A stretch of DNA of 51,445 bases from Clostridia bacterium. GTDB taxonomy: Bacteria; Bacillota; Clostridia; Christensenellales; Borkfalkiaceae. Made by a program: the position numbers and the translations under genes. The stretch is from positions 1-51,445 of the forward strand of contig JAFZYZ010000027.1 of assembly GCA_017615975.1 (NCBI GenBank), read 5' to 3'. Shown here one piece after another: positions 29,287 to 45,835 of the stretch. Below the pieces are notes generated by a model that did not search any database, was not told the origin of the DNA, and saw nothing but the letters and a program-made list of their open reading frames with translations. The first letter of the stretch is position 1; every line of letters begins with the position of its first letter.

Positions 29287-29287
29287 A

Positions 29288-30112
29288 ATGGATAATTCTG
29301 ATTACAGGGTAAAATTAAAACTTGATTTTGCAGAAGAGGAAAAAGTAAAAGATTTTCTTGCAAAGGCTTATTGTGCTTTTTCTGAATCTATACAAATTGA
29401 TAATGAGATATCAAGTGAAACATTTAATAATTTTTGTTTCAGTGCAGGAGTTAAGGCAGACTTAGTTTACTATAATGAATATGTGAATTCACCATTGATT
29501 TTTAAATTTTTACAAAAGCATACAGATTCACTTGTGGATTTTATATACTACTTTTCAATACTTGTTAATTCATGTAAGTATAAAAGTGCTGAACAAAATA
29601 GTTGGATAAAGGCATTTAATTATTGGGCAAGTTTGGCTTGTTTACAGTTTGACTTTATTGAAGATGAAAAAAAGTTTTTTATATTTCCTAAAGGTGCGAA
29701 GGAGTTAGATGATAAATTGATTTCCGAGCCGTTGGAGTGGTTAAAAGATTATAAATTATCACATAAAGCATTTATTAAAGCACTAAAAGATTACTCTGAA
29801 GTAGATGAAAACACGGCAAGTCAGGTTGCCGACAATTTAAGAAAAGCGTTAGAAACTTTCTTTCAAGAATTTTTTGAGACAAGTCAGTCTTTGGAAAACT
29901 GTAAGAGCCTTTATGGTAAATTTATGAAAGATAAAGGGATTTCGACCGATATTTCTAATAACTTTGAAACTCTTTTGCAATTATATACGAACTACAATAA
30001 CAATAACGCAAAGCATCATGACAAGGCAGAAATAAAGGCGTTAGAATATATTTTATATCAAACAGGCGCAATTATAAGACTATTGATTACTTTAAAACAG
30101 GAGAACAAATAA
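29288..30112 (+). CDS. 274-aa predicted all-helical protein of unknown function, translationally coupled between the helicase-nuclease and the methyltransferase
   Basis: ATG 29288 lies 1 nt after the upstream stop and has a GGAGAG SD. Its stop lies 1 nt before the next ATG. I recognise no catalytic motif. Confidence 0.7.
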   Translation: MDNSDYRVKLKLDFAEEEKVKDFLAKAYCAFSESIQIDNEISSETFNNFCFSAGVKADLVYYNEYVNSPLIFKFLQKHTDSLVDFIYYFSILVNSCKYKSAEQNSWIKAFNYWASLACLQFDFIEDEKKFFIFPKGAKELDDKLISEPLEWLKDYKLSHKAFIKALKDYSEVDENTASQVADNLRKALETFFQEFFETSQSLENCKSLYGKFMKDKGISTDISNNFETLLQLYTNYNNNNAKHHDKAEIKALEYILYQTGAIIRLLITLKQENK

Positions 30113-30113
30113 A

Positions 30114-31964
30114 ATGGCTATTAAGTATATACCATTCTTTCCAGAACCTATCGAAGGACAAGCATTGCTTGATAATTTTAAAAGAACTTTAAGATATAAA
30201 GGCGCGGGCGAAGTGCAAGATAAACTTCGTCGTGGTATGCCGCTTTACGAAATGGAAAAAGTAGAATCGGTACTCGGCGGTAGCGATGAAAATCTTGTTA
30301 TTCACGGCGAATGTGTTTCCGCTTGTGCTTATTTTAAAGATAAAGGCATAAAAGTTGACCTTGTTTACATAGATCCGCCGTTTGCAAGCGGAGCAGATTA
30401 TGCTAAAAAGATTTATATTCGTAAAAATCCGAAAGTTGCCGAATTGATTGACAAAGCCGAACAGGAACTCGATAACGACGACTTAAAAGAGTTTGAAGAT
30501 AAAATGTACGGCGATGTTTGGGATAAAGAAAAATATCTTAATTGGATGTACGAAAATTTAATGGCAATAAAATCCGTTATGAGCGAAACGGCGTCCATTT
30601 ATGTCCATTTGGATTGGCATATCGGACATTATGTGAAAATTTTAATGGATGAAATTTTTGGTGAAGATAATTTTAGAAATGAGTTAATATGGAAATATTT
30701 TGGACCAACGAGTGGCAAGAATAATTATCCACGAAAACATGATGTTATTTATTTCTATGTAAAGAATATTGAAAAATATTATTTTGATTTTAATGCGTGT
30801 TTAGTAGATTATGACGAAAAAGCAATAAAAAGATATGATAAAATCGATGAGGATGGTAGAAGATATAAATTATATAACGAAAAAGATGGGACAGTACGAA
30901 AAGCCTATATGAATGAAGGAACGCCTACTGAAGTTTTTGAGATTCCTGGGATTCAAAATCCAGACTATGCAACACAAAAACCCGATGAACTTGTGTCTCG
31001 TTTAATAAGGGCGTCGTCAAACGAAAATATGATTGTTGCGGACTTTTTCAGCGGTAGCGGCGTTACATCGGCAGTTGCAAGTAAATTGAACAGAAAATTT
31101 ATAGCAGGCGACGTAAACTTAAATTCTATACAAACGACAAGGGATAGGCTTGTTTCTATAGGTGCAAAGTTTGATTTGTTGGAAATAAAAGACGGCGTTT
31201 CTTTATATCGCAACCCCGTGCAAACTATGGATAAAATAAAGTCGCTTATTACGGGGCTTAAAAACGAAGATTCGCTTGACGAGTTTTGGGAAGGCGCAAT
31301 TTCTGACAGCAAGTTGGGGCTAATTCCCGTTTACGTTCCTAATTTAATGGATAGTACTACTAAGCTTTTAGACGAAGTATTGATGAATCGTATTTTGCAC
31401 GAAGCAATACCTGAACTTGATAGTTCCGTTAAAAAAGTTATCGTTTATTACGTTGATATTACGGATAAAGCGGAAATAGAAAAGTTTATTAAAGACGACG
31501 ACAGTACTATGGTAGAAATCGAACTACGGGATTTAAAAGAAATTTTAGACGACGTTGTTGTTGATGATCATATTGAATTTACTGTCGAAGAAAATAAAGA
31601 CGATTTATTGGGCGGATATATTATTTCCGTAGATAAATTTATTAGCGACAGGGTAAGCGGAAAGATATTAGAATTTAACCAAAAATCGCTTGCAAATTCA
31701 AGCGAGAAAAAGCCGTATAAACCTATTACTATAAGTGAAGACGGTTTAGAGATGATAGAATTTATTTCGCTTGATTGCACGGCAGACAGCGGTGAATGGC
31801 ATTCCGATAGCGAGATAAAAGTAGAAGGCAAAACGAGTTATGTAACTATAAACGGCAAAAAGACAAAAGAGTTTTGGGACGGCACTATCAAGTGCGAGAA
31901 AAAGCCTTTACGCTTAAAAGTCCGTAACATCTGCGGCGACGAAAGCGTAGTTATTGTAGAATAG
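30114..31964 (+). CDS. beta-class N6-adenine/N4-cytosine DNA methyltransferase (PF01555-like), 616 aa, with a ~270-aa C-terminal extension
   Basis: Motif IV DPPF (30372-30383) comes first, then HLDWHIGHYVKILMDEIFGEDNFRNELIW. ATQKPDELVSRLI and motif I ADFFSGSGVT (31041-31061) come later, which is the beta permutation. Residues ~345-616 have no recognisable motif. Confidence 0.85.
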   Translation: MAIKYIPFFPEPIEGQALLDNFKRTLRYKGAGEVQDKLRRGMPLYEMEKVESVLGGSDENLVIHGECVSACAYFKDKGIKVDLVYIDPPFASGADYAKKIYIRKNPKVAELIDKAEQELDNDDLKEFEDKMYGDVWDKEKYLNWMYENLMAIKSVMSETASIYVHLDWHIGHYVKILMDEIFGEDNFRNELIWKYFGPTSGKNNYPRKHDVIYFYVKNIEKYYFDFNACLVDYDEKAIKRYDKIDEDGRRYKLYNEKDGTVRKAYMNEGTPTEVFEIPGIQNPDYATQKPDELVSRLIRASSNENMIVADFFSGSGVTSAVASKLNRKFIAGDVNLNSIQTTRDRLVSIGAKFDLLEIKDGVSLYRNPVQTMDKIKSLITGLKNEDSLDEFWEGAISDSKLGLIPVYVPNLMDSTTKLLDEVLMNRILHEAIPELDSSVKKVIVYYVDITDKAEIEKFIKDDDSTMVEIELRDLKEILDDVVVDDHIEFTVEENKDDLLGGYIISVDKFISDRVSGKILEFNQKSLANSSEKKPYKPITISEDGLEMIEFISLDCTADSGEWHSDSEIKVEGKTSYVTINGKKTKEFWDGTIKCEKKPLRLKVRNICGDESVVIVE

Positions 31965-32036: not shown

Positions 32037-35000
32037 ATGTATCAAGCGATAAAGCGGTATTGCGAGAATGATAAACAAAATGGTCTTTTCCTTTTGGATA
32101 TGCCAACGGGATTTGGAAAGACTTATAATGTTATTAAGTACATTTATGATGCTTCTATAAATGAGGCTAATAAGGATAAAAAATATTTTTTTATTACTAC
32201 TTTAAAAAAGAACCTTCCGACAGTTGAATTAGAACAGTGGTTTAAAGAAAACGGTAAAGCTGATCAATTTAAAGAAAAGTTTTTGTTTATTGACTCCAAT
32301 GTAGATTGTGCGATCGAACATTTAACGGAAAAAGTTAAAGATTTAATTCCTAATGACATTAAAAAAACAGATGAATACAAAGAATTTGAAAAAGGTATTA
32401 GATTTCTCCAATCACAAGATACAGACACGAAACTGAAGGCTTTTGTTAGTAGTATTCAGGACACATTAAGAACAAAGACAGAACCCGCTTTTAGAAGACT
32501 GCTACAGACTATGTTAGCAAAAGAGTATCCATCAGTAGATAAAAGGTTGTACGCAATTAAAACCGAAAAACGATGGCAATGGCTTGGCGAATTATACCCT
32601 GCAGTTTTTACGAAGGATCGTCAAATAATTTTTATGAGCGTGGAAAAATTTTTGTCTCGTAATTCAACTATTGTTGAAACTTCTTATGTGTTTTATAATT
32701 CGAGTATTATTGAAAATGCAGTTATTTTTATAGATGAATTTGACGCAACAAAGGAGACGATTCTTAATAATATTATACAAAATGGTTTGCGTGACAGAAT
32801 AGATTATGTTGATTTATTCCTTTCTATATACGGTCCATTGCAAACCGCTTCTTTTCCAGCAGCATTAACAATACCATCGAAGAAAAGAAAAGCAAGCGAT
32901 TATGCAAATCAATCGCTTCAAGCTGTAATTGATGGGATAAAAGAGAAAGCGGAAATAATTTATGATACATACTCTCTTCAATTTAATCACCGCACAAATG
33001 TAGATGAAAATAATTCACGTAATTTTTTGTTTCAAGATCATCAGTTTCATTCTGTGCTAAACGGCAACAATAAATATGTCACAACAACGAGTATCAAAAC
33101 TGATCGTATAAATGCCATAAAGTTTACTGAAGAAAGACCAGAACTGGAATCAAACAATATTCAAATATTGCTGGGTAAACTAAGAGGTTTTATTTCGTGG
33201 TTTCTTGGCGGGGTAAATATTCTTGCAATTAACTATATGCAACGAAAGTTGGAGGAAAAGAGAGATGGAGATGAAGATTTTACCTTTGAATATGCAATTC
33301 GCTCGGTCTTATCACTTTTCCGTTTAAATCAGATATATATAGACTTTTTAACATCACAAATTCTTATTTCAAGCCATAAGGCAAAAGGTGATATTCAAAG
33401 TTCAGAATTTGATAAAACATTTTATGAGAACGGGTTCAGGTATTATGCTTTTGAAGATGATGCTGGACACGATATGCAATCTCGTATGATGATGTGTTCT
33501 TTTCAAAATACACCAGAAAAGATTTTATTAAGATTTTGTGAGAAAGCGAAAGTAATCGGTATTTCTGCAACAGCAACTATAGATACCGTTGTTGGCAATT
33601 TTGATCTCGATTATCTCAAAGCAAAAATGCAATCTTCTTACGTTGAAATGTCAGATGAAGATTATAATCGTTTGAGTCGCAATTTTGAGGAGACTCAGTG
33701 CGGATATAATCAAGTCAATATTCATACGGAACTTCTTGGTGATACTGACTACAATTCATATGGGATCAAGTCGTGGCAGCGTGTTTTTGATGACAGAGAA
33801 ATTGCTGAAGAAGCATATAATATTGTCCAACGAAAACGTAGTGATAACGAAAATAATTATAATTCAGAGCGTTATCTTAGAATAACAGAAGCATATAAGC
33901 AGTTCTTGTGCCATGCGGATATTAAATCGTTTCTTTGTGTTCTAACTAAACATCCACAATTTAAAGATAGTACTCTTGATTTGAATACAATTTATGATCT
34001 TTTTGAATTAACAGCAAAAGTGTTTCAACCTGGCTTTGATGCACGCAAATCGGTAGTGAAACTTGATGGGGATGAATTTGATCAAAAGAAGAATGATGTA
34101 ACACGAAGGTTAGAAAGAGGTGAAAAACTCTTTGTAATTTCAGTATACCAGACGATTGGTGCCGGGCAAAATCTCCAATATAAAGCACCTGCGACAATAA
34201 TAAAATCGCTTATAAAGGTCAATGACCGTGATAGTGGCGAAAAGGATTACGATGCTATTTATCTTGACAAACCAACAAATCTTTTAGTGAATTTTATTCA
34301 AGGACAGTCAGTCGAAGAAGATCAGTTTGCAAAAGCGTTATTTCAATACGAATTTTTACAAGAAAATGCGGAAATATCGATTGATGAAAGTGTTAAATCT
34401 ATTAAAAACGCATTTCGTGCATTCATGAGTAATGGGTCAGCAAAAGGAGAATATGTTTCCAATCAGCGTGATTGTAAAAGCATTAGAATGTTGGCAACTC
34501 GGTATATTATTCAGGCAATAGGAAGGATTTGTAGGACAAATTTAAAGCAAAAGGATATATATGTTTTTGCAGACAGTCGAATAGCAGAAAGTTTAGATGT
34601 CAGTGTTGTTGAAAAAAGAATTGTTAATCGTGAGTTTTCCGCGTTATTGGGTCGAATTTCACAGGTTCATTACAAATCACCAGAGGAGCGTTCGCTTGAA
34701 GCAAAAGCGGCTTTAACTTCAATTCGGGTAAACAAAGATATACGCAACATGATAGAAGAAGATTGGAACGATAAGAGTATAGAGAAATGGCAAGTACTTC
34801 GTGATCTCGTTTTAAGATATCCAACGCTATCGCACGAAGAAGTGTCTCGTAATTTTGTGGCATATAATTATTATGTAGAGATGCCTAAAAAGGCAAATCG
34901 TATTTATTACAATCAAGAAGAAGATTTTAATAAGATATCGGTTGGTTTTGTAAAGGCTTCGGAATATAAGTATACTTTATCGGCGGAAGGGGCTAAGCTT

Positions 35001-35519
35001 ATTCAATTAATGTCGTTTCCTGATATTAAACAGTATTTTAAATCTGCTGGATATGCTACCGAATTTGCCGAAAATGACTTTATTATGTCCCCACCACTTT
35101 GGAATAACATATACAAGGGAGCTTTGGGGGAAGTTGTGGGAAGGTATTTGTTTAACAAGATTCTGTCTGTCAAATTGGATGACATTACCGATCCTGAAAT
35201 ATTTGAGCTTTTTGACTTTAAGGTGAGATCATCTTCTGTATTTTTAGACTTTAAGGACTGGCAAGAATCAACTGATTCTAACTGGGACAAGCAGATAAGA
35301 AAGATTACAGAAAAAGCAAACAAATGCGGCTGTAAATGTGCCATTATTGCTAACATATTGACGGCGAATAGCAGATACAGTGTTAGGGAAAGCACTGAAA
35401 ACGGTGTCCATATATTAATTGTGCCTGCACTGCTTTTAGAGTCTACTCATGATGTTTACACGGATGCATGGAAAAAAATTAAGGAGTGCATTGAGAAATA
35501 TGGCGATTCAGACCAATAA
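32037..35519 (+). CDS. Rad3/DinG-like SF2 helicase with a C-terminal PD-(D/E)xK-like nuclease segment, 1160 aa (DdmD-like architecture)
   Basis: Motif I PTGFGKT (32103-32123). Motif II FIDEFDAT (32727-32750). GISATAT and YQTIGAGQNL. Motif VI QAIGRICR (34512-34535). C-terminal ELFDF..VFLDFKDW (D1060, D1071-x-K1073; nt ~35202-35255). The helicase call is solid; the nuclease and DdmD-like calls are inference. Confidence 0.6.
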   Translation: MYQAIKRYCENDKQNGLFLLDMPTGFGKTYNVIKYIYDASINEANKDKKYFFITTLKKNLPTVELEQWFKENGKADQFKEKFLFIDSNVDCAIEHLTEKVKDLIPNDIKKTDEYKEFEKGIRFLQSQDTDTKLKAFVSSIQDTLRTKTEPAFRRLLQTMLAKEYPSVDKRLYAIKTEKRWQWLGELYPAVFTKDRQIIFMSVEKFLSRNSTIVETSYVFYNSSIIENAVIFIDEFDATKETILNNIIQNGLRDRIDYVDLFLSIYGPLQTASFPAALTIPSKKRKASDYANQSLQAVIDGIKEKAEIIYDTYSLQFNHRTNVDENNSRNFLFQDHQFHSVLNGNNKYVTTTSIKTDRINAIKFTEERPELESNNIQILLGKLRGFISWFLGGVNILAINYMQRKLEEKRDGDEDFTFEYAIRSVLSLFRLNQIYIDFLTSQILISSHKAKGDIQSSEFDKTFYENGFRYYAFEDDAGHDMQSRMMMCSFQNTPEKILLRFCEKAKVIGISATATIDTVVGNFDLDYLKAKMQSSYVEMSDEDYNRLSRNFEETQCGYNQVNIHTELLGDTDYNSYGIKSWQRVFDDREIAEEAYNIVQRKRSDNENNYNSERYLRITEAYKQFLCHADIKSFLCVLTKHPQFKDSTLDLNTIYDLFELTAKVFQPGFDARKSVVKLDGDEFDQKKNDVTRRLERGEKLFVISVYQTIGAGQNLQYKAPATIIKSLIKVNDRDSGEKDYDAIYLDKPTNLLVNFIQGQSVEEDQFAKALFQYEFLQENAEISIDESVKSIKNAFRAFMSNGSAKGEYVSNQRDCKSIRMLATRYIIQAIGRICRTNLKQKDIYVFADSRIAESLDVSVVEKRIVNREFSALLGRISQVHYKSPEERSLEAKAALTSIRVNKDIRNMIEEDWNDKSIEKWQVLRDLVLRYPTLSHEEVSRNFVAYNYYVEMPKKANRIYYNQEEDFNKISVGFVKASEYKYTLSAEGAKLIQLMSFPDIKQYFKSAGYATEFAENDFIMSPPLWNNIYKGALGEVVGRYLFNKILSVKLDDITDPEIFELFDFKVRSSSVFLDFKDWQESTDSNWDKQIRKITEKANKCGCKCAIIANILTANSRYSVRESTENGVHILIVPALLLESTHDVYTDAWKKIKECIEKYGDSDQ

Positions 35520-37317
35520 AATCGAAGCTGAAATAAATTACGTAGCACTTGATAATAAATATGATTTTTTTGTTTTAACAACTACAGAGAAATACATTAA
35601 AGGCGGAGCAATGATATTAGATGCGCCGTCATCAATACTTCGTGTACAAGCAATACATTTTACCAACGGAAAATGTTTTTTCGTTATGGTGTTTAAATCT
35701 GCAGATAATAAAAACAAATTAAAGGAATTAATACAATCATATAGCGAAGGTAGATATTTAACTATCAATCAATTAAACAGTAGCGATCTTGAAGAAAAAG
35801 ATTTGCTCCAGTTACTTATCAATGGATTGTCTAATTCACGCAATCCATTACTTGGGTTTAGCAATTTAACAGGACATTTATATTGTTTCCATCCATCATG
35901 GCTTAAACATAAAAGGACAGGGTCTCAAGAAGAAATAGTTAAAGTGCCCTGCATTGAATTTCATGTAGTAGACGAAAATAAATTATTGATAGATGTAAGG
36001 ACTTTCAGTTCAGTAAAACTTAGGAATAAGATCACCTTTCGCAAAAAGAAATTTGAAGAATATCCTAAGTATAGTTTCGCAACAAATAATACATTAAAGC
36101 GAATAACTGAATCGTGCGACGATGCGAGTTATATTTTAAGGCAAACAGATGGTGCAAAGACAGAAATACCGTTTTTGGACATTCTAAATACCGAAAAATT
36201 TATGCAAAGCAAAATGGGTGTTTTATCTGCCGTAATTGAGCAATTCAATAAGGTATATGTGGGGGAGGCGTCTATTAAATTTAGTAGCATAGACGAGTAT
36301 AAACGAATAGACCATAAGAAAAAAGCAGAGGAAGAAAATAAATCGAGAGTTGTTTCCATTTTAAAACAGAACAAAATACGAATTGTTGATCAAATAGGGA
36401 ATGGGTATTCAGAAGAGTTCTGTAAAACAATGTCGAGATTATTGGAAAGAAAATATGGAATTAAACCCTCTTTAGGGACCCGCTTATCAAAAAATGGACT
36501 TAATATAGTTTTAATACACAATGCAGCCTATTATATTGATGTGGAAGATCCGCATGATGTTGTTAAGTCAAATTATGCTATTCAACATGTTACATTAGAA
36601 GATTTTTCTAATAGTGCTGAATTTGCGATTGCTACTGTTGTTAATGAGTTAATTATTAAAGATGATTTGAGATCTGGAAAAATATCATTATTTGATTGGA
36701 AACGACTTTCATTTCAAGGTGATTTTATATTCGGGACTGAGGTTGTTGAAAACGAAATAAAAAAATATTTGTTTATGCGTATTCATCCAGATGGCTCTTT
36801 TGTAATACATAAATGTGAATTTGATTTATTTTCTGCAAATGAATATATGAAATATGCAAAAATATATGAAGATGCTAAAGTTGCTTCTGAAACGGTTCGA
36901 GGCATAATAAGCGATGATAAAGGAAATATAAATATTATTAAAGATACGGATTGGTTTACAATTCCAAATATTAACTGTATTAAATCTGAGTTAGAGAAAG
37001 GTAATACAAAGATTCGGGGCAAAGAGGCAAGAATGCGTTTTCTCGATGCAATATTAGATATAAAATGGTTTCAAAACGGGGAAGATGTTTTCTATTTTGC
37101 AAATGACATTGGGGACGGAATGCGCACATTAGTGCAACGTGCTGCGAATATAAGAAAAATAGTTGCACATGAGAACTCGGAATTGTTTTTTGATAAAATC
37201 TCCCCATTGTTTGATGTGACTTTTGTCCGCAATGGTCAGTTAACAGTTGTTCCGTTCCCGTTCAAGTATTTACGAGAAGATTTTGATTATATGAAAAAAG
37301 TTAATGAAGATGACTAA
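35500..37317 (+). CDS. 605-aa protein with a MID-PIWI-like C-terminal half, predicted catalytically inactive (pAgo-like / DdmE- or PIWI-RE-like candidate)
   Basis: ATG 35500 overlaps the upstream gene by 20 nt, with AAGGAG 13 nt upstream. NIVLIHNAAYYIDVEDPHDVVKSNYAIQHVTLEDF fits the MID-type K..Q pattern. FIFGTEVV sits at the GxDV position, IISDDKG at the RDG position, and VVPFPFKYLRE matches PxPxxYA[HD]. The CDS is well supported; the fold assignment is by eye only. Confidence 0.45.
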   Translation: MAIQTNKIEAEINYVALDNKYDFFVLTTTEKYIKGGAMILDAPSSILRVQAIHFTNGKCFFVMVFKSADNKNKLKELIQSYSEGRYLTINQLNSSDLEEKDLLQLLINGLSNSRNPLLGFSNLTGHLYCFHPSWLKHKRTGSQEEIVKVPCIEFHVVDENKLLIDVRTFSSVKLRNKITFRKKKFEEYPKYSFATNNTLKRITESCDDASYILRQTDGAKTEIPFLDILNTEKFMQSKMGVLSAVIEQFNKVYVGEASIKFSSIDEYKRIDHKKKAEEENKSRVVSILKQNKIRIVDQIGNGYSEEFCKTMSRLLERKYGIKPSLGTRLSKNGLNIVLIHNAAYYIDVEDPHDVVKSNYAIQHVTLEDFSNSAEFAIATVVNELIIKDDLRSGKISLFDWKRLSFQGDFIFGTEVVENEIKKYLFMRIHPDGSFVIHKCEFDLFSANEYMKYAKIYEDAKVASETVRGIISDDKGNINIIKDTDWFTIPNINCIKSELEKGNTKIRGKEARMRFLDAILDIKWFQNGEDVFYFANDIGDGMRTLVQRAANIRKIVAHENSELFFDKISPLFDVTFVRNGQLTVVPFPFKYLREDFDYMKKVNEDD

Positions 37318-37436
37318 TGATTTTGTAATCACTAATGGTAAATGAACTTTCCATACTAAACAAGTATTTAGGCGAGAGTAGTTTAAGGGATACTACTAGA
37401 ATTATGTTTTTATAGAGAAATGTTTGGAAATACACT

Positions 37437-38954
37437 ATGGATATTTTAGAAAAAATAAGTGAATTATATGGGAAAATTTATAAATACAATTCTTTACTTT
37501 TAAAAAAATCAGAAGATTTATTGTTAGAAAATAAGTACGATTTTGATGATATATTTGATTTTTATATAACTTCACATGCTTTAGGATATTTGAAAAATCT
37601 TTATTTCGGGAATATACAAAGTGCAGGGTTTTATCTTAATATCAGATGTATTATAGAAGGACTTGCTATAAAACAGTTAAACGCTCAAGGTAAGATAAGC
37701 ATTGAGATGAAACAACTACTGCAAAAGCAAGTTTTTTTAATAGAATATAAGAACTATTTTCAATTCAGTGATATATCTGATAAAATTTTATTACCAGAAA
37801 AATTACAATATGATTATGATAAAGCTGTCGAATATTATAAGGAAATACTACACAATCGATTTGATAATAAGACGATATTAGAAATATGCAAATCGAAAAT
37901 CCCATTTTTATGCAATCCAAAGATTAGTTTTCATAAAATAATTGAAAACACTTTAGGCGAAAAAGCAACTTCCATATATGGGATATATAGTTCAATGATA
38001 CATTCGTCGAATAATATTCCTTATACAATGGAAGAGCTTAATAATTTTGCTATCGCCATATTCCCATATATCGTTGAAAACTTTGATGTATTACCGAGTG
38101 GCACTTCGCTAAAGGATGAACTATATTTGTTAGCGTCTCAAATAGGGAATTCATTAACCCAGTGTTTTACGGATATAGGCGATATACTAATAAATGTTGC
38201 AAATGTTTTTGAAAAAAAATTTAATAATAATTATGTCACAAATACTTTTAGAAAATTATCATATGTTCTGTCAGATTTTGCAATAGAAAAAAACATTGGT
38301 TTAACAGAACAAATAAAAAGTAAGTGGAAAATCCTTTTAGAACATTTTGCCGTCTTTAATTTTCAATATTTTAATGCTAAACATGACGAAAATATATATA
38401 AATTAATGGACAAGCATAGAATACTTCAAGAAAAAAGGAATCTATCAATAAAATTTGTTTTAGATGACGAATATGAACTTTACTGTAAAATTTATTCAAC
38501 TAATCACTGTGAAAAGGCCACATTTGATAAAGCATTTTTACAGCCTCTAGGTTATCTAATTAACGAGAAAGGGATTGTGCCTAAAATCGTAGATTTAATA
38601 AAAGATTTTTCAAAACTTTTTGGGGCTGATAAGTTAGGGGAAATAACTGCCGGAAAATCTATGATTTTAGATTACGTTGAAAGTCAAATGATATCTCATG
38701 CTAACGGATATATGTGGTTTGCAAATAATGGCGCTTGGGGAGATGTAAACAGCGTTCTAATCAATACTTTGTTAAGCATAAAGTTGATTCTAGAAAAAAT
38801 GCAAGCTGTTTTTAAGGTTCATAGAGAAATAGAAGGGACAAAAGAATATAAAACAATAATAAATCTCTTAAGGAATAGTCTAAAAAAGCTGGATGTTAAT
38901 TTGAAAAATTTGCTTGAAATATTAAGTTTGCCAATGATTAAAAAGCCTTATTAG
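37437..38954 (+). CDS. 505-aa predicted all-helical protein of unknown function
   Basis: Long ORF in the same orientation as its neighbours, very AT-rich. Two internally similar halves each carry an R/K-x-hydrophobic..E segment and a later S-x-I/M-x-H motif (IYSSMIHSSNN; ESQMISHANGYMW). I can assign no family. Confidence 0.6.
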   Translation: MDILEKISELYGKIYKYNSLLLKKSEDLLLENKYDFDDIFDFYITSHALGYLKNLYFGNIQSAGFYLNIRCIIEGLAIKQLNAQGKISIEMKQLLQKQVFLIEYKNYFQFSDISDKILLPEKLQYDYDKAVEYYKEILHNRFDNKTILEICKSKIPFLCNPKISFHKIIENTLGEKATSIYGIYSSMIHSSNNIPYTMEELNNFAIAIFPYIVENFDVLPSGTSLKDELYLLASQIGNSLTQCFTDIGDILINVANVFEKKFNNNYVTNTFRKLSYVLSDFAIEKNIGLTEQIKSKWKILLEHFAVFNFQYFNAKHDENIYKLMDKHRILQEKRNLSIKFVLDDEYELYCKIYSTNHCEKATFDKAFLQPLGYLINEKGIVPKIVDLIKDFSKLFGADKLGEITAGKSMILDYVESQMISHANGYMWFANNGAWGDVNSVLINTLLSIKLILEKMQAVFKVHREIEGTKEYKTIINLLRNSLKKLDVNLKNLLEILSLPMIKKPY

Positions 38955-38992
38955 ATTTTTGATAATGTTTATAATAAATAAAGGATATCCAA

Positions 38993-41900
38993 ATGAAAAT
39001 AATTAAAAGTACGCAATTGAAGAAATGGTTTTATTATAATAGCAGAAAAACTCAGTCTATTTTTCCAGAATTAATACGAAAATTAATTCGTATGTCAATC
39101 AATAGAACTTCAAATATTCATTTACCATCAGGGGATTCTATATATACTACAGGATGGGATGCTATTGTCAAACATAATGAAGTAAAGCATGAGTTTGTGC
39201 CACTAGGATCATCCTTTTGGGAATTGGGGACAAATAACAATAGTGTAGCAAAAATAGAGGCTGATTATAAGAAAAGAAAAGCTCAATCTACTATTTACGA
39301 CAAATCTCAATATACATATGTTGCAGTAACATCAAGAATTTTAGACTCTGGGAAAAAGGAGGAAATATGCGAACAAATAAAGAAAGATAAAAATTTTAAA
39401 GATGCAATAATTATTGATGCAAATGATCTAGAATGTTGGCTGGAAGGCCATATTGATATTACAATTTGGCTGTTAAACAAATACGAAGAAAGTATTAAAG
39501 ATTATGAAATTAATACTGTCGAAAATATTTGGCAAGAGATATCGCAATCAACAAATCCAAAACTAACTGAAACAATTTTTACGACAGGAAATCAAGCGCA
39601 GGCTACTCGGTTTATTGATGACATTACAAATAATCTTGTAACAGGGAACAATTATTATGCGGTTTGTTCTCCTTTTTATGGGCAAGAGCATGCTTTATTT
39701 TTTGCTGTGGCAAGTATTATAAGTTCAAATAATGAAGCACTTATTGAAAGGAGTATTGTCGTAGAAAGTCAAGCTGGATTAGATATAATAAATGCATTTT
39801 GCGAAGATAAAATAATAATATTAAATTTTAATTGTTTCGATAAAAGATTAAGCAAAAACACAACAAACAAGTATATTTTTCTAGAAAATATAACGGCGGG
39901 AATTCAATTAGAATTAGTTTCACAGCAAGATTTTACAAAAGCTATAGAAACATTGGGATATTCAGCAGGCGAGGCATATAGGATTTCATATACAGTAGAA
40001 AATAATGCGGTTGCATTAAGAAGGTTGTTGGCACAAGTGCCAACATTAAAAAAACCACGGTGGGCAAGAGAGAAGAATAAAAATGACTTAATACCGTTAA
40101 TGATTTTGGGTGAAATAAATATGAATAAATTATCCGATATTGAGATGTTAAAAGCAATAGTTGGCGATAATTATGATCAGTATTTAGAAACCTTAAATTT
40201 TTGGACGGAAATCGGGTATGCACCTTTATATAAATATGAAGATGTTTATAGAATTTGTAGCAAAAAAGAATGTTTTGAAAATATTCAAGTTGATCACTTT
40301 TCAGTAAAAATCAAAAAAATAGAAGACAAGATAAAAGAATTGTTTTGCAATAAAGACATAGATAATAATCTATTTAATGAGAGAACTATAAGAAATATAA
40401 TAGAAGCGTTCATTATCATGGCGCAACAATCAGAAAGGAATCAACTTCATTTTGATTTTTACGTTGAAGAAATATTTAAAAATGTTAGTGGCAACGAAGT
40501 GCTTTATGAAAGAATAAAAACATTTTTGTCTCTTTTAGCAGAATTATCACCTCAAAAATTTATTAAATATATTGAAGGTGAAATTGCAAACGATAATCCT
40601 GTTTTTAATGCTTTGGTAAATAAAGAAAGTAGTGTTAATAGCTGCGATTTTGTAAACTATATATCTTATGGATTAGATAGATCTTTAAGGTTAAAGGAAA
40701 CCGTTGTAAAATCATTAAAAGTGTTGTTGCAACTATATTATCATGTCAATGAAAATCTGCTTCTATTAGAAAGAATTCAGGAAAGTTTTTCTCCAATTAC
40801 GGTTGGACTATTTCCCATTTCTTTACATAGAAAAACCGAACTTTTATTTAATTATATTAAAGATCAAGATTCGAATAAAACAAAAAAGATAATGGAAGGC
40901 TTATCATCTGGCGGTAAGCTGAATATGATGATTGCAAGCGCACGGTCTTATCGGCAATTTGATGAACAAGAAAAAATTCATTATACCTATCAAGACTATT
41001 TTGACCTGCAAAGCCAGGCGATAAAATGGTTAATTAATAATTCATCTCAGTCAGATTTAGCAAGTTTATTAGAGAAAGCTTTAAATAATATATATTATCG
41101 TCCAAAAAATTTGTTGTGTGAAGATTTAGAACAAATAAAACAAAAATGTTTAACTGACAACGTAAGCGATGAAGTAAAGGCTGAATTAAATGTTAAAGTT
41201 TTGTCAAAAATTGAGGATTTAAAAAAGTTTGATAGAAAGTATAAAAACGATTATTTGCCAATATTGCAAGAGTTTTTAGATGCTATTGCCCCAACAGATA
41301 CCTATATTAGTTATAGATATATGTTCACGCAAGATAATTTCCCATTAGCTAATCCCATAAAATTTGAAAGTAATGCAAATTGGTATGAACGGGACAATGA
41401 AAGTAGAGAAATATTACGCAAAAATGCCATTGAAGTTTTATTGAAAGAATATGGTGAAAATATTTTAGAAAGAATTATTAATGATGCCACAAAAAAATCA
41501 TATAGTATTTGGAAACTTCTCTTTTGTTATTCTAAAGACAAGGAAAAAGATATTATACAAATGATAAAACTTAAAGAACAGGTTGGGCTTTCTTTTTATT
41601 TATCTAGAATAGAAAATGCTGTTTTAGTTAAATATATAGACATCGCCGAAAATGAAGAGGATGCATTCATTTTTTCTTGTTTGCCATTTAATATCCAAAC
41701 TATTAATTTTGTAAGTGGTAAAACTAATGAAAAATTATATTGGGAAGGAAGGAGATTATATTTTAATGATGAATTATCTTTTGAGCAAGTATTCGATAAA
41801 ATGTTGAAGTTTTATCCAACAGGATTATTGGATTATTTTGCTTATAGGAGAGATTATTCATACGAGGAAGGAATTTTATTATTAAACGCATTGGCAACAT

Positions 41901-42655
41901 ATTTACAAGAAGAGAATAACGAAATAAGAAGACTGGATTTCTATTCACTAAAAGAAATAATAAAGAAAATGGACAATAAGTATTATACTAAAGAATTGTC
42001 CAAATGTGAATTTGACTTATTAGAGTATATATTAACGGATTTGGAAGATTATCCTTTAGGAATTAAAAAATATTTTTGGGATAATCCAAAGGAATTAGGA
42101 GGATTGCTGTCTGAATTGTATAATAAAAGAGATAAATTACAACAAGGAAGTTTAGGTGCTAAAATTTTTTTTGAAGCACACATATCACTAGGGGAAAAAT
42201 CATTTATTCCTAAAGAGTATATGTTGCAATATAAGGAAAAGCTTTATAGTTGGGCAATGGAGATAATTAATGTAAACTCTATAGATAATAAAAATTTAAA
42301 AATATTTTTGAAATTAGCTGTAATAAATACTTTAGCCAAATGCCCTAAAGAAATTAATGCTAAAATTTGGCCGATAAAAGAAGTAGCGGATATTTTAGAG
42401 GAATTGTCAAAAGAAGATTTTGATTCACCCGAAAGAGTCTCAAGCAATTTCTACTGTTCTTTTTTTAATACGAGAGGTATGAGAACAATAGGAAATGGAG
42501 AAGAGGAGTTTGTGTTAAATGAAGAGTATTTAGCATATAAAGACTACTATGATGTTTCCCATCCTGTGGTTGCCACAGCACTGGGATATATAGCAAATGG
42601 ATATAAGGAAGAAGGGGAAATGGACAAACGGTGGTATTTATTTGGGGAATATTAA
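38993..42655 (+). CDS. 1220-aa protein of unknown function; the N-terminal ~150 aa may be a restriction-endonuclease-like domain, the remainder looks helical-repeat-like
   Basis: AAAGGA SD 7 nt upstream. N-terminal FPELIRKLI..TTGWDAIV..GSSFWELGTNNNSVAKIEADYKKRK..YVAVTSR..IIDANDLECWLE (nt ~39125-39277), with D56/E77/K86 as candidate D..E..K residues. No P-loop is seen anywhere. Confidence 0.6.
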   Translation: MKIIKSTQLKKWFYYNSRKTQSIFPELIRKLIRMSINRTSNIHLPSGDSIYTTGWDAIVKHNEVKHEFVPLGSSFWELGTNNNSVAKIEADYKKRKAQSTIYDKSQYTYVAVTSRILDSGKKEEICEQIKKDKNFKDAIIIDANDLECWLEGHIDITIWLLNKYEESIKDYEINTVENIWQEISQSTNPKLTETIFTTGNQAQATRFIDDITNNLVTGNNYYAVCSPFYGQEHALFFAVASIISSNNEALIERSIVVESQAGLDIINAFCEDKIIILNFNCFDKRLSKNTTNKYIFLENITAGIQLELVSQQDFTKAIETLGYSAGEAYRISYTVENNAVALRRLLAQVPTLKKPRWAREKNKNDLIPLMILGEINMNKLSDIEMLKAIVGDNYDQYLETLNFWTEIGYAPLYKYEDVYRICSKKECFENIQVDHFSVKIKKIEDKIKELFCNKDIDNNLFNERTIRNIIEAFIIMAQQSERNQLHFDFYVEEIFKNVSGNEVLYERIKTFLSLLAELSPQKFIKYIEGEIANDNPVFNALVNKESSVNSCDFVNYISYGLDRSLRLKETVVKSLKVLLQLYYHVNENLLLLERIQESFSPITVGLFPISLHRKTELLFNYIKDQDSNKTKKIMEGLSSGGKLNMMIASARSYRQFDEQEKIHYTYQDYFDLQSQAIKWLINNSSQSDLASLLEKALNNIYYRPKNLLCEDLEQIKQKCLTDNVSDEVKAELNVKVLSKIEDLKKFDRKYKNDYLPILQEFLDAIAPTDTYISYRYMFTQDNFPLANPIKFESNANWYERDNESREILRKNAIEVLLKEYGENILERIINDATKKSYSIWKLLFCYSKDKEKDIIQMIKLKEQVGLSFYLSRIENAVLVKYIDIAENEEDAFIFSCLPFNIQTINFVSGKTNEKLYWEGRRLYFNDELSFEQVFDKMLKFYPTGLLDYFAYRRDYSYEEGILLLNALATYLQEENNEIRRLDFYSLKEIIKKMDNKYYTKELSKCEFDLLEYILTDLEDYPLGIKKYFWDNPKELGGLLSELYNKRDKLQQGSLGAKIFFEAHISLGEKSFIPKEYMLQYKEKLYSWAMEIINVNSIDNKNLKIFLKLAVINTLAKCPKEINAKIWPIKEVADILEELSKEDFDSPERVSSNFYCSFFNTRGMRTIGNGEEEFVLNEEYLAYKDYYDVSHPVVATALGYIANGYKEEGEMDKRWYLFGEY

Positions 42656-43076: not shown

Positions 43077-44132
43077 ATGGCAATCGATATTGAAAATATC
43101 GAACACACAATAGGTTATACTTTTGAAAATAAGGATCTATTGAAACAGGCGTTCGTCAGAAGGAGTTATTCAGAAGAATATGGCGGGCAGAACAATGAGG
43201 TATTGGAGTTTATCGGAGATAAAGCACTGGACCTTGCAGTTGTCAGATTGATGATGTTGCGGTTTGGTGAAATTACCGAAGATAAGGAATTGAGCGAGTT
43301 TAAGTTAACTAGTCCTAAGTATTTTAAGACAAAGCTCGGCGAGGGAAAATTTACCGACATAAAGAAACTGCTCGTTCAGAAAAAAACGTTATCAAAATGC
43401 ATTGATAGATTAGGATTTCATAAGCAATTGATAATGGGAAAAGGTGATATAGAACAAGGCGTAGAAAACCAAGATTCAGTAAAAGAAGACTTGTTTGAGG
43501 CAATAATAGGAGCGATTGCTCTGGATTGCGATTTTAATATGAGACAAATTAGTTATGTGGTTGACGCCATGCTTGATGTCTTGGCTTTTTTTAAAAATGA
43601 GGATTTTAATGCTAATTATGATGGCAACTATGTGTCGTGGCTACAAGAGTGGACACAATCGCAAGGGTATGGTTTACCAAATTATACGTATACCTTAAAT
43701 ACTGATGATAATTCATTTACTTGTCGTTTAACAATAACGGGGAAAGATGGTTTTAGACATTTTGAATTGGGTGATGGGTTTAGTCATGCAAAAGCAAGAG
43801 CTGTAGTTGCATATAAAACATTTATATACTTACGCGAACAAGGTATAATAAAAAATAGATTTGAAGATGCAGTTGGTAAACCGTATTTTGAAGAATCTAT
43901 CCGACAATTGAATGAATTATATCAAAAGAGATTAATAGCGAAGCCTGAATATTCTTTTAATGAAGAACATGATGAAAACGGTGATTCAATTTGGTTTTGT
44001 ACTTTAACAGTCGAAGGGTTTGAAAAGAAAGTAGAAGAAGGCTCTAATTCAAAAAAAGACGCTCAAAGGTTTGCTGCATATAATTTTCTTTGCTACATCA
44101 TGGGAATAGAGGAAGAATTAAAGGGAAATTAA
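43077..44132 (+). CDS. RNase III-family nuclease with two C-terminal dsRBD-like domains, 351 aa (accessory paralogue)
   Basis: Signature EVLEFIGD (43197-43220) and second catalytic motif EDLFEAIIGAIALD (from 43485), so all four acidic catalytic positions are present. Two alpha-beta3-alpha-like segments follow, ending in HAKARAVVAYKTFIYL and KKDAQRFAAYNFLCYI. AGGAGG SD. Confidence 0.75.
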   Translation: MAIDIENIEHTIGYTFENKDLLKQAFVRRSYSEEYGGQNNEVLEFIGDKALDLAVVRLMMLRFGEITEDKELSEFKLTSPKYFKTKLGEGKFTDIKKLLVQKKTLSKCIDRLGFHKQLIMGKGDIEQGVENQDSVKEDLFEAIIGAIALDCDFNMRQISYVVDAMLDVLAFFKNEDFNANYDGNYVSWLQEWTQSQGYGLPNYTYTLNTDDNSFTCRLTITGKDGFRHFELGDGFSHAKARAVVAYKTFIYLREQGIIKNRFEDAVGKPYFEESIRQLNELYQKRLIAKPEYSFNEEHDENGDSIWFCTLTVEGFEKKVEEGSNSKKDAQRFAAYNFLCYIMGIEEELKGN

Positions 44133-44217: not shown

Positions 44218-44341
44218 ATAGTTTATGGTAAAATATAAAGGTCAAAAGGAGGTGGGGCTATGATTGCGTAGGCGTCCACTATCGGCAAAGATAAGTGGAC
44301 GGGAAAATCAAAACAATTTAATAAAAACAGGAGGTATTTAT

Positions 44342-45835
44342 GTGAAAATAACGTATAAGGATTTTGTAGAAATCCAAAAGTTAAAGAAGCAAGGAATAAC
44401 GAGAAACGAGGCTGTCCTAAAAACCAAATACACGCAGTACGTAATATATAAATACTGGGATATGCCCGAAGACGTGTTCCTTAAAGAAAAAGACCAGACC
44501 AAGTCGGAATACAGCAAGTACCGAGACGTTATCGTCGAGATAATAAACGAGAACAGCACTCTTCCCGCAAACGTAATTCACGATAGGCTGAAAGAACGGG
44601 TCGGCGCGGAAAACCTTGCGTCTATGAATTCCTTTTATCGGTACTTAAAAAGCCTAAAGCAAAGGATGGGGCTATCCGACAAAAAGGTTTCAGTTCGCCA
44701 GATGGTAGAAGAAACTCCGATGGGTGAAGAAGCGCAGGTAGACTTCGGTCAATACCAAATGCCGAATATGTACGGTGGCGTAAACAGAGTATATTTCTTC
44801 TGTATGGTGCTGTCGTACAGTCGGATGAAATACGTGTACTTTCTATCAGAACCGTTCGACTCGCTGACGTTTGCCTATGCACACGAACTAGCTTTTAAGT
44901 ATTTCGACGGCAGGCCTAAAAGGATACTGTACGACCAAGACAGGACGATGGTAGTAAGCGAAAACTGCGGGAATATAATTTTCACTAAAGAGTTCGACGC
45001 TTACCGAAGAACGGCGGGGTTTGAAGCGATGGTTTGTAAACCTTACGACCCGGACAGCAAAGGTAAGGTAGAGAACGTCGTAAAGTTCGTAAAGCAAAAC
45101 TTCCTTGAAGGCAGAGAGTATTGCGGGATTGACGCGCTTAATAATCAATGCCTGGCGTGGCTGGACAGAACGGGGAACGGCAAGATACACCAAGCGACTA
45201 AAAAGACGCCGCGGGAGTTATTTGTTAAAGAACAGCCGAAACTTACAAAGCATCACCCCGTAGAAATCGACCTGAATAAAACGAGAGTGGCAAGGGTATC
45301 CGACCTATACTACGTGACCTACAAAAACAACAGATATTCCGTTCCGCCGAGTAAGTGCAAAATCGGGGACAGAGTAAAGTTGGAAGTCGAAGGCAATGCA
45401 CTCAATATTATCGACGTAGCGACCGACAAAAAGATAATTACTCACCGATTGCTGCAAGGGAAAGGCAAGGCAAACGTCGAAAGGGAGATGCCTATTGACA
45501 AGAACTACTTTAACAAAGCCAAAGAAAAGTACGAGTCAAGCAGCGTGGTAGTCAAGTTTATCGAAAGGATAGAGATGACAAAGCCACGGTACTTAAAAGA
45601 ACAGGCACGGCTGTTGCATAAAATAGAAAAGCAGTATTCAAAGGACGATATAATTTCCGCAATAGTGACTTGTTCGAGTGAAAATAGGTTTTGCTTTACC
45701 GAAGTGCTTTCGGAACTCTTGATTCAGGTAGGCGAAAGAAATCTTAAAGAGATAGCGCCGAAACGGACTGCGTCTAGGTATAAAAAACTCGCTAACTACA
45801 ATCTTTTGACGGAGGCTGACGATGGACTTATCTAG
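44342..45835 (+). CDS. istA: IS21-family transposase IstA
   Basis: GTG 44342 has an AGGAGG SD 8 nt upstream. N-terminal HTH. DDE core EEAQVDFG, LYDQDRTMV and PYDPDSKGKVEN. Confidence 0.85.
   Translation: MKITYKDFVEIQKLKKQGITRNEAVLKTKYTQYVIYKYWDMPEDVFLKEKDQTKSEYSKYRDVIVEIINENSTLPANVIHDRLKERVGAENLASMNSFYRYLKSLKQRMGLSDKKVSVRQMVEETPMGEEAQVDFGQYQMPNMYGGVNRVYFFCMVLSYSRMKYVYFLSEPFDSLTFAYAHELAFKYFDGRPKRILYDQDRTMVVSENCGNIIFTKEFDAYRRTAGFEAMVCKPYDPDSKGKVENVVKFVKQNFLEGREYCGIDALNNQCLAWLDRTGNGKIHQATKKTPRELFVKEQPKLTKHHPVEIDLNKTRVARVSDLYYVTYKNNRYSVPPSKCKIGDRVKLEVEGNALNIIDVATDKKIITHRLLQGKGKANVEREMPIDKNYFNKAKEKYESSSVVVKFIERIEMTKPRYLKEQARLLHKIEKQYSKDDIISAIVTCSSENRFCFTEVLSELLIQVGERNLKEIAPKRTASRYKKLANYNLLTEADDGLI

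What the first reader, a model, noticed from the sequence alone, without database searches (positions are those of the whole stretch)
36502..37278. PIWI-like motifs with substituted catalytic positions in the 605-aa protein
These positions were read directly from the translation. (1) aa 335-369, IVLIHNAAYYIDVEDPHDVVKSNYAIQHVTLEDF (nt 36502-36606), resembles the MID strand-helix-strand carrying the conserved Lys and Gln that bind a guide 5' end. (2) aa 409-416, FIFGTEVV (nt 36724-36747), sits where PIWI has hhGxDV, with Glu replacing the first catalytic Asp. (3) aa 469-475, IISDDKG, sits where the RDG strand is expected. (4) aa 583-593, VVPFPFKYLRE (nt 37246-37278), aligns with the C-terminal PxPxxYA[H/D] motif, with Arg at the fourth catalytic position. 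Together these suggest a binding-only Argonaute that would rely on the adjacent helicase-nuclease. The N-terminal ~280 aa show nothing PAZ-like that I can see.
Basis: inference. Interest (0 to 1): 0.7.

Follow-up and report, generated by a model that had tools for sequence, protein, structure and literature searches.

The report
DdmE-type inactive Argonaute lacking insertion domain
The 605-aa protein is a catalytically dead, guide-binding Argonaute of the known DdmE type, encoded right after its DdmD helicase-nuclease partner (the anti-plasmid DdmDE system), but it naturally lacks the insertion domain that published DdmE structures use to recruit DdmD.

Summary
The four motifs are in the sequence as described; motif 1 starts at aa 336, not 335. 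The 605-aa ORF (35500-37317) is a homologue of DdmE, and the overlapping upstream 1160-aa ORF (32037-35519) is a DdmD helicase-nuclease.

Evidence:
- A family profile matches L. casei DdmE at E 7.7e-65 and V. cholerae DdmE at 3e-45.
- The AlphaFold model (pLDDT 96) has DdmE structures as best PDB matches (TM 0.74-0.77), then canonical Argonautes.
- The six residues that hold the guide 5'-phosphate/Mg2+ in VcDdmE have conserved counterparts here: H352, Q362, E383, K387, K589, E593.
- The proposed catalytic positions (E414, D472/D473, R592) vary across 128 relatives, so there is no DEDX tetrad.

One correction: K356 is not conserved. The invariant lysine is K387.

New point: this protein, and 97 of the 128 closest representatives, lack the ~75-105-aa INS/DID domain inserted in PIWI. 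That domain contacts DdmD in both solved complexes, and deleting it inactivates VcDdmDE.

Verdict: a known system in a divergent, unannotated, INS-less variant from gut Clostridia. Interest is moderate.

The parts
32037..35519 (+). ddmD-like gene, 1160 aa: SF2 (XPD/DinG-like) helicase fused to a C-terminal PD-(D/E)xK nuclease
   Evidence: PADLOC DdmD E 1.3e-43. LcDdmD 9ix4 E 2.7e-64 over residues 5-1113, and VcDdmD 4e-41. Motifs found: PTGFGKT at 23-29, DEFD 233, SATA 510, QAIGR 826. Nuclease residues E1032, E1057, D1060, D1071 and K1073 align with VcDdmD E1059, E1082, D1085, D1100 and K1102.
35500..37317 (+). ddmE-like gene, 605 aa: catalytically inactive Argonaute. It overlaps the end of ddmD by 20 nt.
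   Evidence: The 605-aa product is called on independent contigs. The ddmD-ddmE overlap is conserved in L002, L004 and L005.
35500..36309 (+). N, L1, mini-PAZ (C-APAZ-like hairpin around aa 191-201) and L2 regions, approximately aa 1-270. Includes K220 (nt 36157-36159), which aligns with the VcDdmE minor-groove sensor K230.
   Evidence: Boundaries come from the profile alignment to the LcDdmE domain limits and the model's secondary structure. K220 is K/R in 96% of relatives; Y191 and R201 are 92% conserved.
36310..36699 (+). MID domain, approximately aa 271-400, with the guide 5'-phosphate pocket: H352 (36553-36555), Q362 (36583-36585), E383 (36646-36648), K387 (36658-36660)
   Evidence: These align with VcDdmE Y363, Q376, E401 and K405, and with LcDdmE Y339 and K395. 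Conservation: 352 is Y or H only, Q362 95%, E383 80%, K387 100%.
36700..37314 (+). PIWI (RNase-H-like) domain, approximately aa 401-605, without a catalytic tetrad. Putative tetrad positions: E414 (36739-36741), D472/D473 (36913-36918), R592 (37273-37275).
   Evidence: Predicted order b1 409-417, b2 420-428, b3 433-439, a1 450-461, b4 466-471. These columns are variable. The only conserved acids in aa 395-605 are D520 and E593.
37009..37014 (+). Site (K504|I505) where LcDdmE and VcDdmE and 31 of 128 relatives carry the INS/DID domain. Here it is an 8-residue loop between helices 491-499 and 508-514.
   Evidence: The profile alignments open a gap of about 85 aa (Lc) and about 70 aa (Vc) exactly here. 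The length of segment 490-530 is bimodal: about 40 aa versus 100-124 aa. The model is confident through the loop, pLDDT 96-98.
37246..37278 (+). C-terminal motif VVPFPFKYLRE. K589 (37264-37266) and E593 (37276-37278) complete the Mg2+/5'-phosphate pocket.
   Evidence: They align with VcDdmE K674 and E678. P585 and K589 are invariant and E593 is 98%.

Best explanation
Window 32037-37317 encodes a two-gene DdmDE-type anti-plasmid/anti-MGE system.

The 605-aa protein is a DdmE-class ('long-C') prokaryotic Argonaute with no slicer activity. Its MID pocket (H352, Q362, E383, K387), together with K589 and E593 of the C-terminal helix, binds the Mg2+-coordinated 5'-phosphate of a short guide, most likely DNA. 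The guide pairs with a target DNA strand in the N-PIWI channel, and K220 of the mini-PAZ region reads the duplex minor groove. The target-bound protein then recruits the upstream DdmD helicase-nuclease onto the displaced strand, where DdmD translocates 5'-3' and degrades the DNA.

Shown here: homology, fold, conservation of the pocket, absence of a tetrad, the intact DdmD active sites, and the conserved overlapping operon.

Inferred by analogy with V. cholerae and L. casei DdmDE: guide chemistry, target type, recruitment and degradation.

Unlike the studied DdmEs, this protein has no INS/DID domain. The DdmD contact must therefore be made by other surfaces (mini-PAZ/L1/L2) or through the DNA.
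For: - PADLOC DdmD 1.3e-43 and DdmE 7.9e-9.
- PDB sequence search: DdmE 4.2e-15 with the single sequence and 7.7e-65 with the profile, full length. DdmD 2.7e-64.
- AF2 model pLDDT 96.2. Foldseek top six hits are all DdmE, TMq 0.60-0.77, followed by canonical Agos.
- All six residues whose alanine substitution abolishes VcDdmDE activity (Y363, Q376, E401, K405, K674, E678) have conserved counterparts.
- No conserved acidic tetrad.
- DdmD helicase and nuclease motifs are intact.
- The overlapping ddmD-ddmE cassette recurs in unrelated flanks.
- Purifying selection on both genes: dN/dS 0.08 and 0.16.
- The pair sits in a low-GC defence island next to a restriction-modification-like module and an IS21 element.
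Against: - There is no experimental data for this lineage.
- Identity to the characterised DdmEs is only 16-18%.
- The INS/DID domain is missing. It forms the main DdmD contact in both solved complexes, and deleting it abolishes VcDdmDE activity. The recruitment step therefore cannot be copied from the models.
- This particular protein has acidic residues at some putative tetrad positions (E414, D472/D473), so residual catalysis is not formally excluded.
- The Pfam Piwi model does not match.
Confidence: 0.88

Rival explanations
1. The protein is an active slicer Argonaute with a non-canonical tetrad (E414, an acid from loop 440-448, D472/D473, and a further residue) that cuts targets itself.
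For: This sequence has E414 in the middle of b1, D472/D473 just after b4, and E440, D442 and E448 in the loop before a1.
Against: None of these columns is conserved. Column 414 is mostly K/R, D472 is 38% D, and the loop acids are at most 46%. The fourth position is Arg in 76% of relatives. Both characterised DdmEs are inactive. The only conserved acids in PIWI are D520 and E593.
Confidence: 0.03
2. It belongs to a different Argonaute-like family that also pairs with helicases and nucleases (PIWI-RE, or ApsB of ApsAB) rather than to DdmE.
For: The gene context is similar. PIWI-RE genes cluster with DinG helicases. ApsAB pairs a helicase-nuclease with an Argonaute-like protein, and ApsA grades into DdmD-like proteins.
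Against: The direct, significant, full-length matches are to DdmE and DdmD. Ten diverse family members match no Pfam family significantly at E<=10, so none matches Piwi or any pPIWI_RE model. ApsB is reported to lack the RNase H fold and to have no sequence similarity to DdmE, whereas this model has an Argonaute PIWI fold. PsPIWI-RE has its conserved R and E 79 residues apart, not the adjacent R592-E593 seen here.
Confidence: 0.03
3. The INS-less form cannot recruit DdmD on its own. It either depends on extra partners (for example the 505-aa and 1220-aa genes just downstream) or is a decayed, non-functional DdmE.
For: INS deletion kills VcDdmDE. The 505-aa and 1220-aa genes follow ddmDE both here and in L010, which lies in a different island.
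Against: 97 of the 128 closest representatives lack INS, and the pocket residues remain conserved. dN/dS is 0.16. In L011, L002, L004 and L005 the INS-less cassette has other neighbours, so the 505/1220 pair is not a conserved partner.
Confidence: 0.06

Closest known systems
DdmDE of Lactobacillus casei (LcDdmE PDB 9IW3/9IXM; LcDdmD 9IX4)
   Same: Best sequence and structure match: profile E 7.7e-65 over the full length, and Foldseek E 6.5e-36 with TMq 0.74-0.76. Same domain order. Same 5'-phosphate pocket (Lc Y339 and K395 align with H352 and K387). No DEDX tetrad. DdmD partner matched at 2.7e-64, in the same gene order.
   Different: 17-18% identity. LcDdmE is 715 aa, with an INS domain (aa 510-616) that binds DdmD HD2. 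Here that domain is replaced by an 8-residue loop. LcDdmE also has roughly 20 extra residues in MID.
DdmDE of Vibrio cholerae (VcDdmE PDB 8U3K/9EZY/8U0J)
   Same: Foldseek TMq 0.75-0.77. All six residues essential for 5'-phosphate/Mg2+ binding have counterparts, and so does the minor-groove sensor K230 (K220 here). The DdmD nuclease residues are conserved.
   Different: 16% identity. VcDdmE is 687 aa, with the INS/DID domain required for activity. Tyr at the first pocket position is replaced by His here; the family is split about evenly between Y and H.
Canonical long prokaryotic and eukaryotic Argonautes (MpAgo, KmAgo, TtAgo, hAgo2)
   Same: Overall bilobed Argonaute fold (Foldseek E 1e-10 to 1e-6). 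Rossmann-like MID with a Y/H...Q...K pocket. RNase-H-like PIWI that ends in a PxP motif followed by a helix.
   Different: No full PAZ, no DEDX tetrad, and no C-terminal tail reaching into the MID pocket (K589 and E593 take that role). There is no detectable sequence-profile similarity.
ApsAB and PIWI-RE/DinG modules
   Same: The same logic: an Argonaute-like sensor paired with a helicase and a nuclease.
   Different: Different protein families by the published descriptions and by the Pfam results.

Membership tests
DdmE / 'long-C' pAgo | Significant sequence homology to experimentally characterised DdmE over the whole protein | tested here: met
   phmmer 4.2e-15 (Lc) and 1.7e-8 (Vc). Profile 7.7e-65 covering 3-597 against Lc 4-706, and 3.2e-45 against Vc. 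PADLOC DdmE 7.9e-9, C-terminal part only.
DdmE / 'long-C' pAgo | Argonaute fold with N-L1-miniPAZ-L2-MID-PIWI, with DdmE structures as nearest neighbours | tested here: met
   AF2 pLDDT 96.2 and pTM 0.93. The Foldseek top six hits are DdmE chains, followed by canonical Agos.
DdmE / 'long-C' pAgo | No DEDX catalytic tetrad in PIWI | tested here: met
   Columns 414, 472, 473 and 592 are variable. The only conserved acids in aa 395-605 are D520 and E593. The exact register against canonical Agos was not confirmed by superposition.
DdmE / 'long-C' pAgo | MID and C-terminal pocket for the Mg2+-bound guide 5'-phosphate (Vc Y363, Q376, E401, K405, K674, E678) | tested here: met
   H352 (Y/H only), Q362 95%, E383 80%, K387 100%, K589 100%, E593 98%.
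DdmE / 'long-C' pAgo | INS/DID domain inserted in PIWI that contacts DdmD HD2. Described as conserved in the clade and required in VcDdmE. | tested here: not met
   The alignment gap falls exactly at the Lc and Vc INS. The 490-530 segment is 40 aa here against 100-124 aa in the 31 INS+ relatives. The model shows a short loop at this point. Literature.
DdmE / 'long-C' pAgo | Encoded directly downstream of a DdmD helicase-nuclease gene | tested here: met
   20-nt overlap with the 1160-aa DdmD homologue. The arrangement recurs in L002, L004, L005, L010, L011, L012 and L014.
DdmE / 'long-C' pAgo | DNA-guided DNA binding and DdmD-dependent plasmid elimination | not testable with these tools
   Needs biochemistry and in vivo assays.
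DdmD | SF2 helicase motifs plus PD-(D/E)xK nuclease residues, in a protein of about 1150-1200 aa homologous to DdmD | tested here: met
   PTGFGKT, DEFD, SATA, QAIGR; E1032, E1057, D1060, D1071, K1073.
Catalytically active long-A pAgo / Pfam Piwi (PF02171) | Match to the Piwi model, a DEDX tetrad and a canonical PAZ | tested here: not met
   No Piwi hit in ten diverse members at E<=10, or in the precomputed domains of 120 homologues. hhalign to a TtAgo-family alignment was not significant. No tetrad.
PIWI-RE | Match to the pPIWI_RE Pfam models (names recalled from memory), with conserved R and E distant in sequence | tested here: not met
   No significant Pfam hit of any kind. The PsPIWI-RE R639 and E718 spacing differs from the adjacent R592-E593 here.
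ApsB (ApsAB) | Y-x3-K...QG...K MID motif, no RNase H/PIWI fold, partner ApsA with annotated nuclease residues up to 1435 | not tested
   No ApsB sequence was available. The published description does not fit a protein with a PIWI fold and a 1160-aa partner.

The most novel reading that the evidence does not exclude
This widespread INS-less clade is a minimal DdmDE in which the Argonaute recruits and activates DdmD without the INS/DID domain, through the mini-PAZ/L1/L2 surface or through the displaced DNA strand alone. If so, the INS-centred 'handover' model would not be general, and a smaller programmable DNA-targeting pair would be available.
Probability: 0.5. Interest if true: 0.5.

Novelty: new variant of a known kind. 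Interest (0 to 1): 0.4.

Why it matters
DdmDE is a recently solved plasmid-elimination system. Current reviews state that DdmD is recruited 'at the INS domain' of DdmE, and deleting INS inactivates the V. cholerae system.

The lineage in this window lacks that domain. So do 97 of the 128 full-length 50%-identity representatives closest to it, while the guide-binding pocket and the DdmD partner stay intact and under purifying selection. The named sources are mostly gut Clostridia MAGs, and every source that names the protein calls it 'hypothetical protein'. If the lineage is functional, it shows that the recruitment interface is evolutionarily plastic, and it offers a shorter (605-aa) DNA-guided sensor.

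It also shows that the tools tested here under-detect DdmE. The PADLOC model matches only the last 90 residues or so, and Pfam and NCBIfam match nothing. The distribution of DdmDE in Firmicutes is therefore probably underestimated.

Tried and rejected
- Residue-level mapping onto a canonical slicer. I fetched TtAgo from pTT27, collected its relatives (only 15, all Thermus-like), aligned them and ran hhalign against the family profile: whole protein, then MID-PIWI only, in local, global and low-mact modes. Nothing was significant. The forced alignment put E414 on TtAgo D478 and D473 on D546, but it mis-registered the C-terminus, so I treat it as no more than a hint. Model coordinates are not exposed, so no superposition was possible.
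- Pfam, NCBIfam and PHROGs on the protein and on ten relatives: no informative hit.
- The promoter/terminator scan of 31.8-39.1 kb was no better than shuffles, and it found no terminator between ddmE and the next gene.
- tblastn against plasmids found one Nostoc plasmid at 28% identity, annotated as hypothetical. tblastn against phages found nothing.
- For the 1220-aa neighbour, the viral-contig scan was empty and the metagenome scan gave one uninformative 4.7-kb contig.
- One literature search ('long-C') was wasted on unrelated hits. The Bravo et al. Nature paper is not in the library.
- Rejected readings: active slicer, PIWI-RE or ApsB membership, and pseudogene (see rival explanations).
Full report
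**Observation**

The ORF at 35449-37317 is best read from the ATG at 35500, which gives 605 aa. That start is preceded by AAGGAG. It is the product called on independent metagenome contigs that carry the identical gene, and it matches the conserved family N-terminus. The first starts at aa 336 (nt 36505), not 335.

**What it is**

PADLOC models identify the upstream 1160-aa ORF (32037-35519) as DdmD (E 1.3e-43) and the 605-aa ORF as DdmE (E 7.9e-9, C-terminal 90 residues only). Pfam and NCBIfam give nothing useful.

Against PDB sequences:
- The 605-aa protein matches L. casei DdmE (9IW3) at 4.2e-15 and V. cholerae DdmE at 1.7e-8.
- The 1160-aa protein matches LcDdmD (9IX4) at 2.7e-64 over residues 5-1113, and VcDdmD at 4e-41.

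An exhaustive search found 772 cluster representatives (50% identity) with E<=0.001. Where sources name the close homologues at all, the name is 'hypothetical protein', and none has a Pfam domain. Named sources are MAGs of Acutalibacteraceae, Oscillospiraceae, Lachnospiraceae and other Clostridia.

A profile built from 128 full-length representatives (A1) matches LcDdmE end to end at 7.7e-65 and VcDdmE at 3.2e-45. It matches no other PDB family with E<0.3.

AlphaFold2 with this alignment gives a very confident model (pLDDT 96.2, pTM 0.93). Foldseek against the PDB ranks six DdmE chains first (E 6.5e-36 to 3.8e-21, TMq 0.60-0.77). MpAgo, KmAgo, human AGO1/2, TtAgo, PIWI-clade proteins and AfPiwi follow, at E 1e-10 to 6e-5. 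The protein therefore has an Argonaute fold and is closest to DdmE.

**The four motifs**

(1) MID. Alignment to LcDdmE and VcDdmE pairs residues as follows:

| This protein | LcDdmE | VcDdmE |
|---|---|---|
| H352 | Y339 | Y363 |
| Q362 | – | Q376 |
| E383 | – | E401 |
| K387 | K395 | K405 |

In the solved structures these residues hold the flipped 5' nucleotide and the Mg2+ that bridges the guide 5'-phosphate, and alanine substitutions abolish plasmid elimination. Across the 128 relatives, position 352 is only Y (66) or H (62), Q362 is 95%, E383 is 80% and K387 is invariant.

The invariant Lys is K387.

(2) FIFGTEVV forms the first PIWI strand (b1, 409-417), with E414 in mid-strand, where RNase-H/PIWI enzymes carry the first Asp (established knowledge of the fold). 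F411 is 94% conserved, but column 414 is K39/R15/A11/E10.

(3) IISDDKG is the end of b4 (466-471) plus the following turn, which is the position of the canonical 'RDG' Asp. D472 is D in 38% of relatives and D473 in 21%.

(4) VVPFPFKYLRE is the most conserved element. P585 and K589 are invariant, and P587, Y590 and E593 are 97-98%. It starts the C-terminal helix (587-604), as PxPxxYA[H/D] does in canonical Argonautes. R592 sits at the fourth tetrad position by motif register and is R in 76%.

K589 and E593 align with VcDdmE K674 and E678, which contact the pocket Mg2+. The conserved residues of this motif thus align with guide-binding residues, whereas the residue at the putative catalytic position is more variable.

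In aa 395-605 only D520 and E593 are conserved acids. Whatever the exact register, the family has no DEDX tetrad.

I could not confirm the register by superposition, because no coordinates are exposed. I also could not confirm it by profile-profile alignment to a TtAgo family alignment.

**Other conserved residues**

K220 (K/R in 96%) aligns with the VcDdmE minor-groove sensor K230. R577 (K/R in 95%) aligns with R662, which contacts the target DNA at the D-loop junction.

**The partner**

The DdmD homologue keeps the helicase motifs PTGFGKT (23-29), DEFD (233), SATA (510) and QAIGR (826). It also keeps the nuclease residues E1032, E1057, D1060, D1071 and K1073, which align with VcDdmD E1059, E1082, D1085, D1100 and K1102.

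ddmD and ddmE overlap by 20 nt. The same overlapping pair (1151-1167 aa plus 593-711 aa) recurs with unrelated flanking genes in L002, L004, L005, L010, L011, L012 and L014. The two-gene cassette is therefore the unit.

**What differs from known DdmE**

LcDdmE (715 aa) and VcDdmE (687 aa) carry an INS/DID domain inserted in PIWI (Lc 510-616). Three points from the literature make it important:
- It makes the main contact with DdmD HD2 in both complexes.
- It is described as conserved in the 'long-C' clade, and deleting it abolishes VcDdmDE activity.
- A 2026 review places DdmD recruitment 'at the INS domain'.

In the profile alignments, the whole INS of Lc (about 85 aa) and of Vc (about 70 aa) falls into a gap between query K504 and I505. 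In the model this site is an 8-residue loop between two short helices, with pLDDT 96-98.

Among the 128 representatives, the 490-530 segment is bimodal. It is about 30-50 aa in 97 of them and 100-124 aa in 31. In a rough NJ tree the INS+ proteins form clades of 19, 8, 2, 1 and 1 among the INS- clades.

INS+ relatives also sit next to a DdmD gene. DdmD partners of the two forms show no large indels, so the HD2 helical region is retained. Nothing in the 605-aa protein replaces INS.

The window therefore encodes a natural INS-less DdmE. It is about as distant from Lc and Vc (16-18% identity) as those two are from each other (14%).

**Mechanism**

By homology, the protein should load a short 5'-phosphorylated guide in the H352/Q362/E383/K387/K589/E593 pocket and pair it with target DNA. 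The guide is probably DNA, given the conserved minor-groove Lys. The protein should not cut. It should then hand the displaced strand to DdmD for ATP-driven 5'-3' translocation and PD-(D/E)xK cleavage.

The pocket, the fold, the dead active site and the intact partner are shown here. Guide type, target type and recruitment are inferred. The recruitment interface must differ from the published one.

**Context**

The genes lie in a low-GC (28-35%) island at about 24.7-44.2 kb, between housekeeping genes at 44-47% GC. The island ends at an IS21-family element. Upstream is a Type III-like module: a ResIII helicase, a PDC-S32 candidate and an N6/N4 methyltransferase.

**Rivals**

- An active slicer is unlikely, because the acidic residues are not conserved.
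- PIWI-RE or ApsB membership is not supported.
- A decayed gene is unlikely. dN/dS is 0.16, the pocket is conserved and the clade is large.
- Dependence on the two downstream genes is possible but not favoured, because they accompany ddmDE only in the closest relatives.

**Verdict**

The system is a known kind (DdmDE). The specific lineage is unannotated, and it is a structural variant that lacks the domain currently regarded as the recruitment element. Interest is moderate (0.4).

Noticed in passing
window 37437-38954 (+) and 38993-42655 (+): Two large genes of unknown function (505 aa and 1220 aa) follow ddmE directly, with no terminator-like site between them. The same pair follows ddmDE in L010, which lies in a different island, but not in L011, L002, L004 or L005. 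Neither gene has a PADLOC, Pfam, NCBIfam or PDB match. The 1220-aa protein matches phrog_18693 (unknown function, E 6e-30), and one 40%-identity homologue was found (L016). Possibly a separate, undescribed defence pair.
   Followed up: partly
window 32037-42655 versus L010 4437-15036: Divergence is mosaic. ddmD is 94% aa identical (dS 0.31), while ddmE is 74% (dS 0.97), with a sharp break at the gene junction near 35480. The 505-aa gene is 89% identical and the 1220-aa gene 70%. This suggests allele replacement of ddmE by recombination rather than faster evolution. All four genes are under purifying selection (dN/dS 0.08-0.18).
   Followed up: partly
window 26416-31964 (+): A Type III-like restriction-modification module: a 956-aa ResIII helicase, a 274-286-aa protein matching the PADLOC candidate PDC-S32 (E 9e-24), and a 616-aa N6/N4 DNA methyltransferase. 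It lies immediately upstream of ddmD.
   Followed up: partly
window 43077-44132 (+): A 351-aa RNase III plus dsRBD protein inside the low-GC island. It is longer than typical RNase III and scores below the TIGR02191 cutoff (126 against 166 bits), so it may be an island-borne paralogue rather than the housekeeping rnc.
   Followed up: no
window ~24700-46556: The low-GC (28-35%) island is flanked by sequence at 44-47% GC and ends at an IS21-family IstA/IstB pair (44264-46556). The identical island occurs on metagenome contigs L007 and L008.
   Followed up: partly
window 37102-37104 (aa N535): The query has Asn where 96% of the family has Gly (consensus YYxVGxxGxGM). The significance is unknown.
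   Followed up: no
L013 2777-6946: An INS-containing DdmE relative (P0165) lies directly next to a type II CRISPR-Cas locus (Cas9-like 989 aa, Cas2, Cas1). Another (P0220, L014) lies between a Type I restriction R subunit and McrBC. These relatives therefore also lie next to other defence genes.
   Followed up: no
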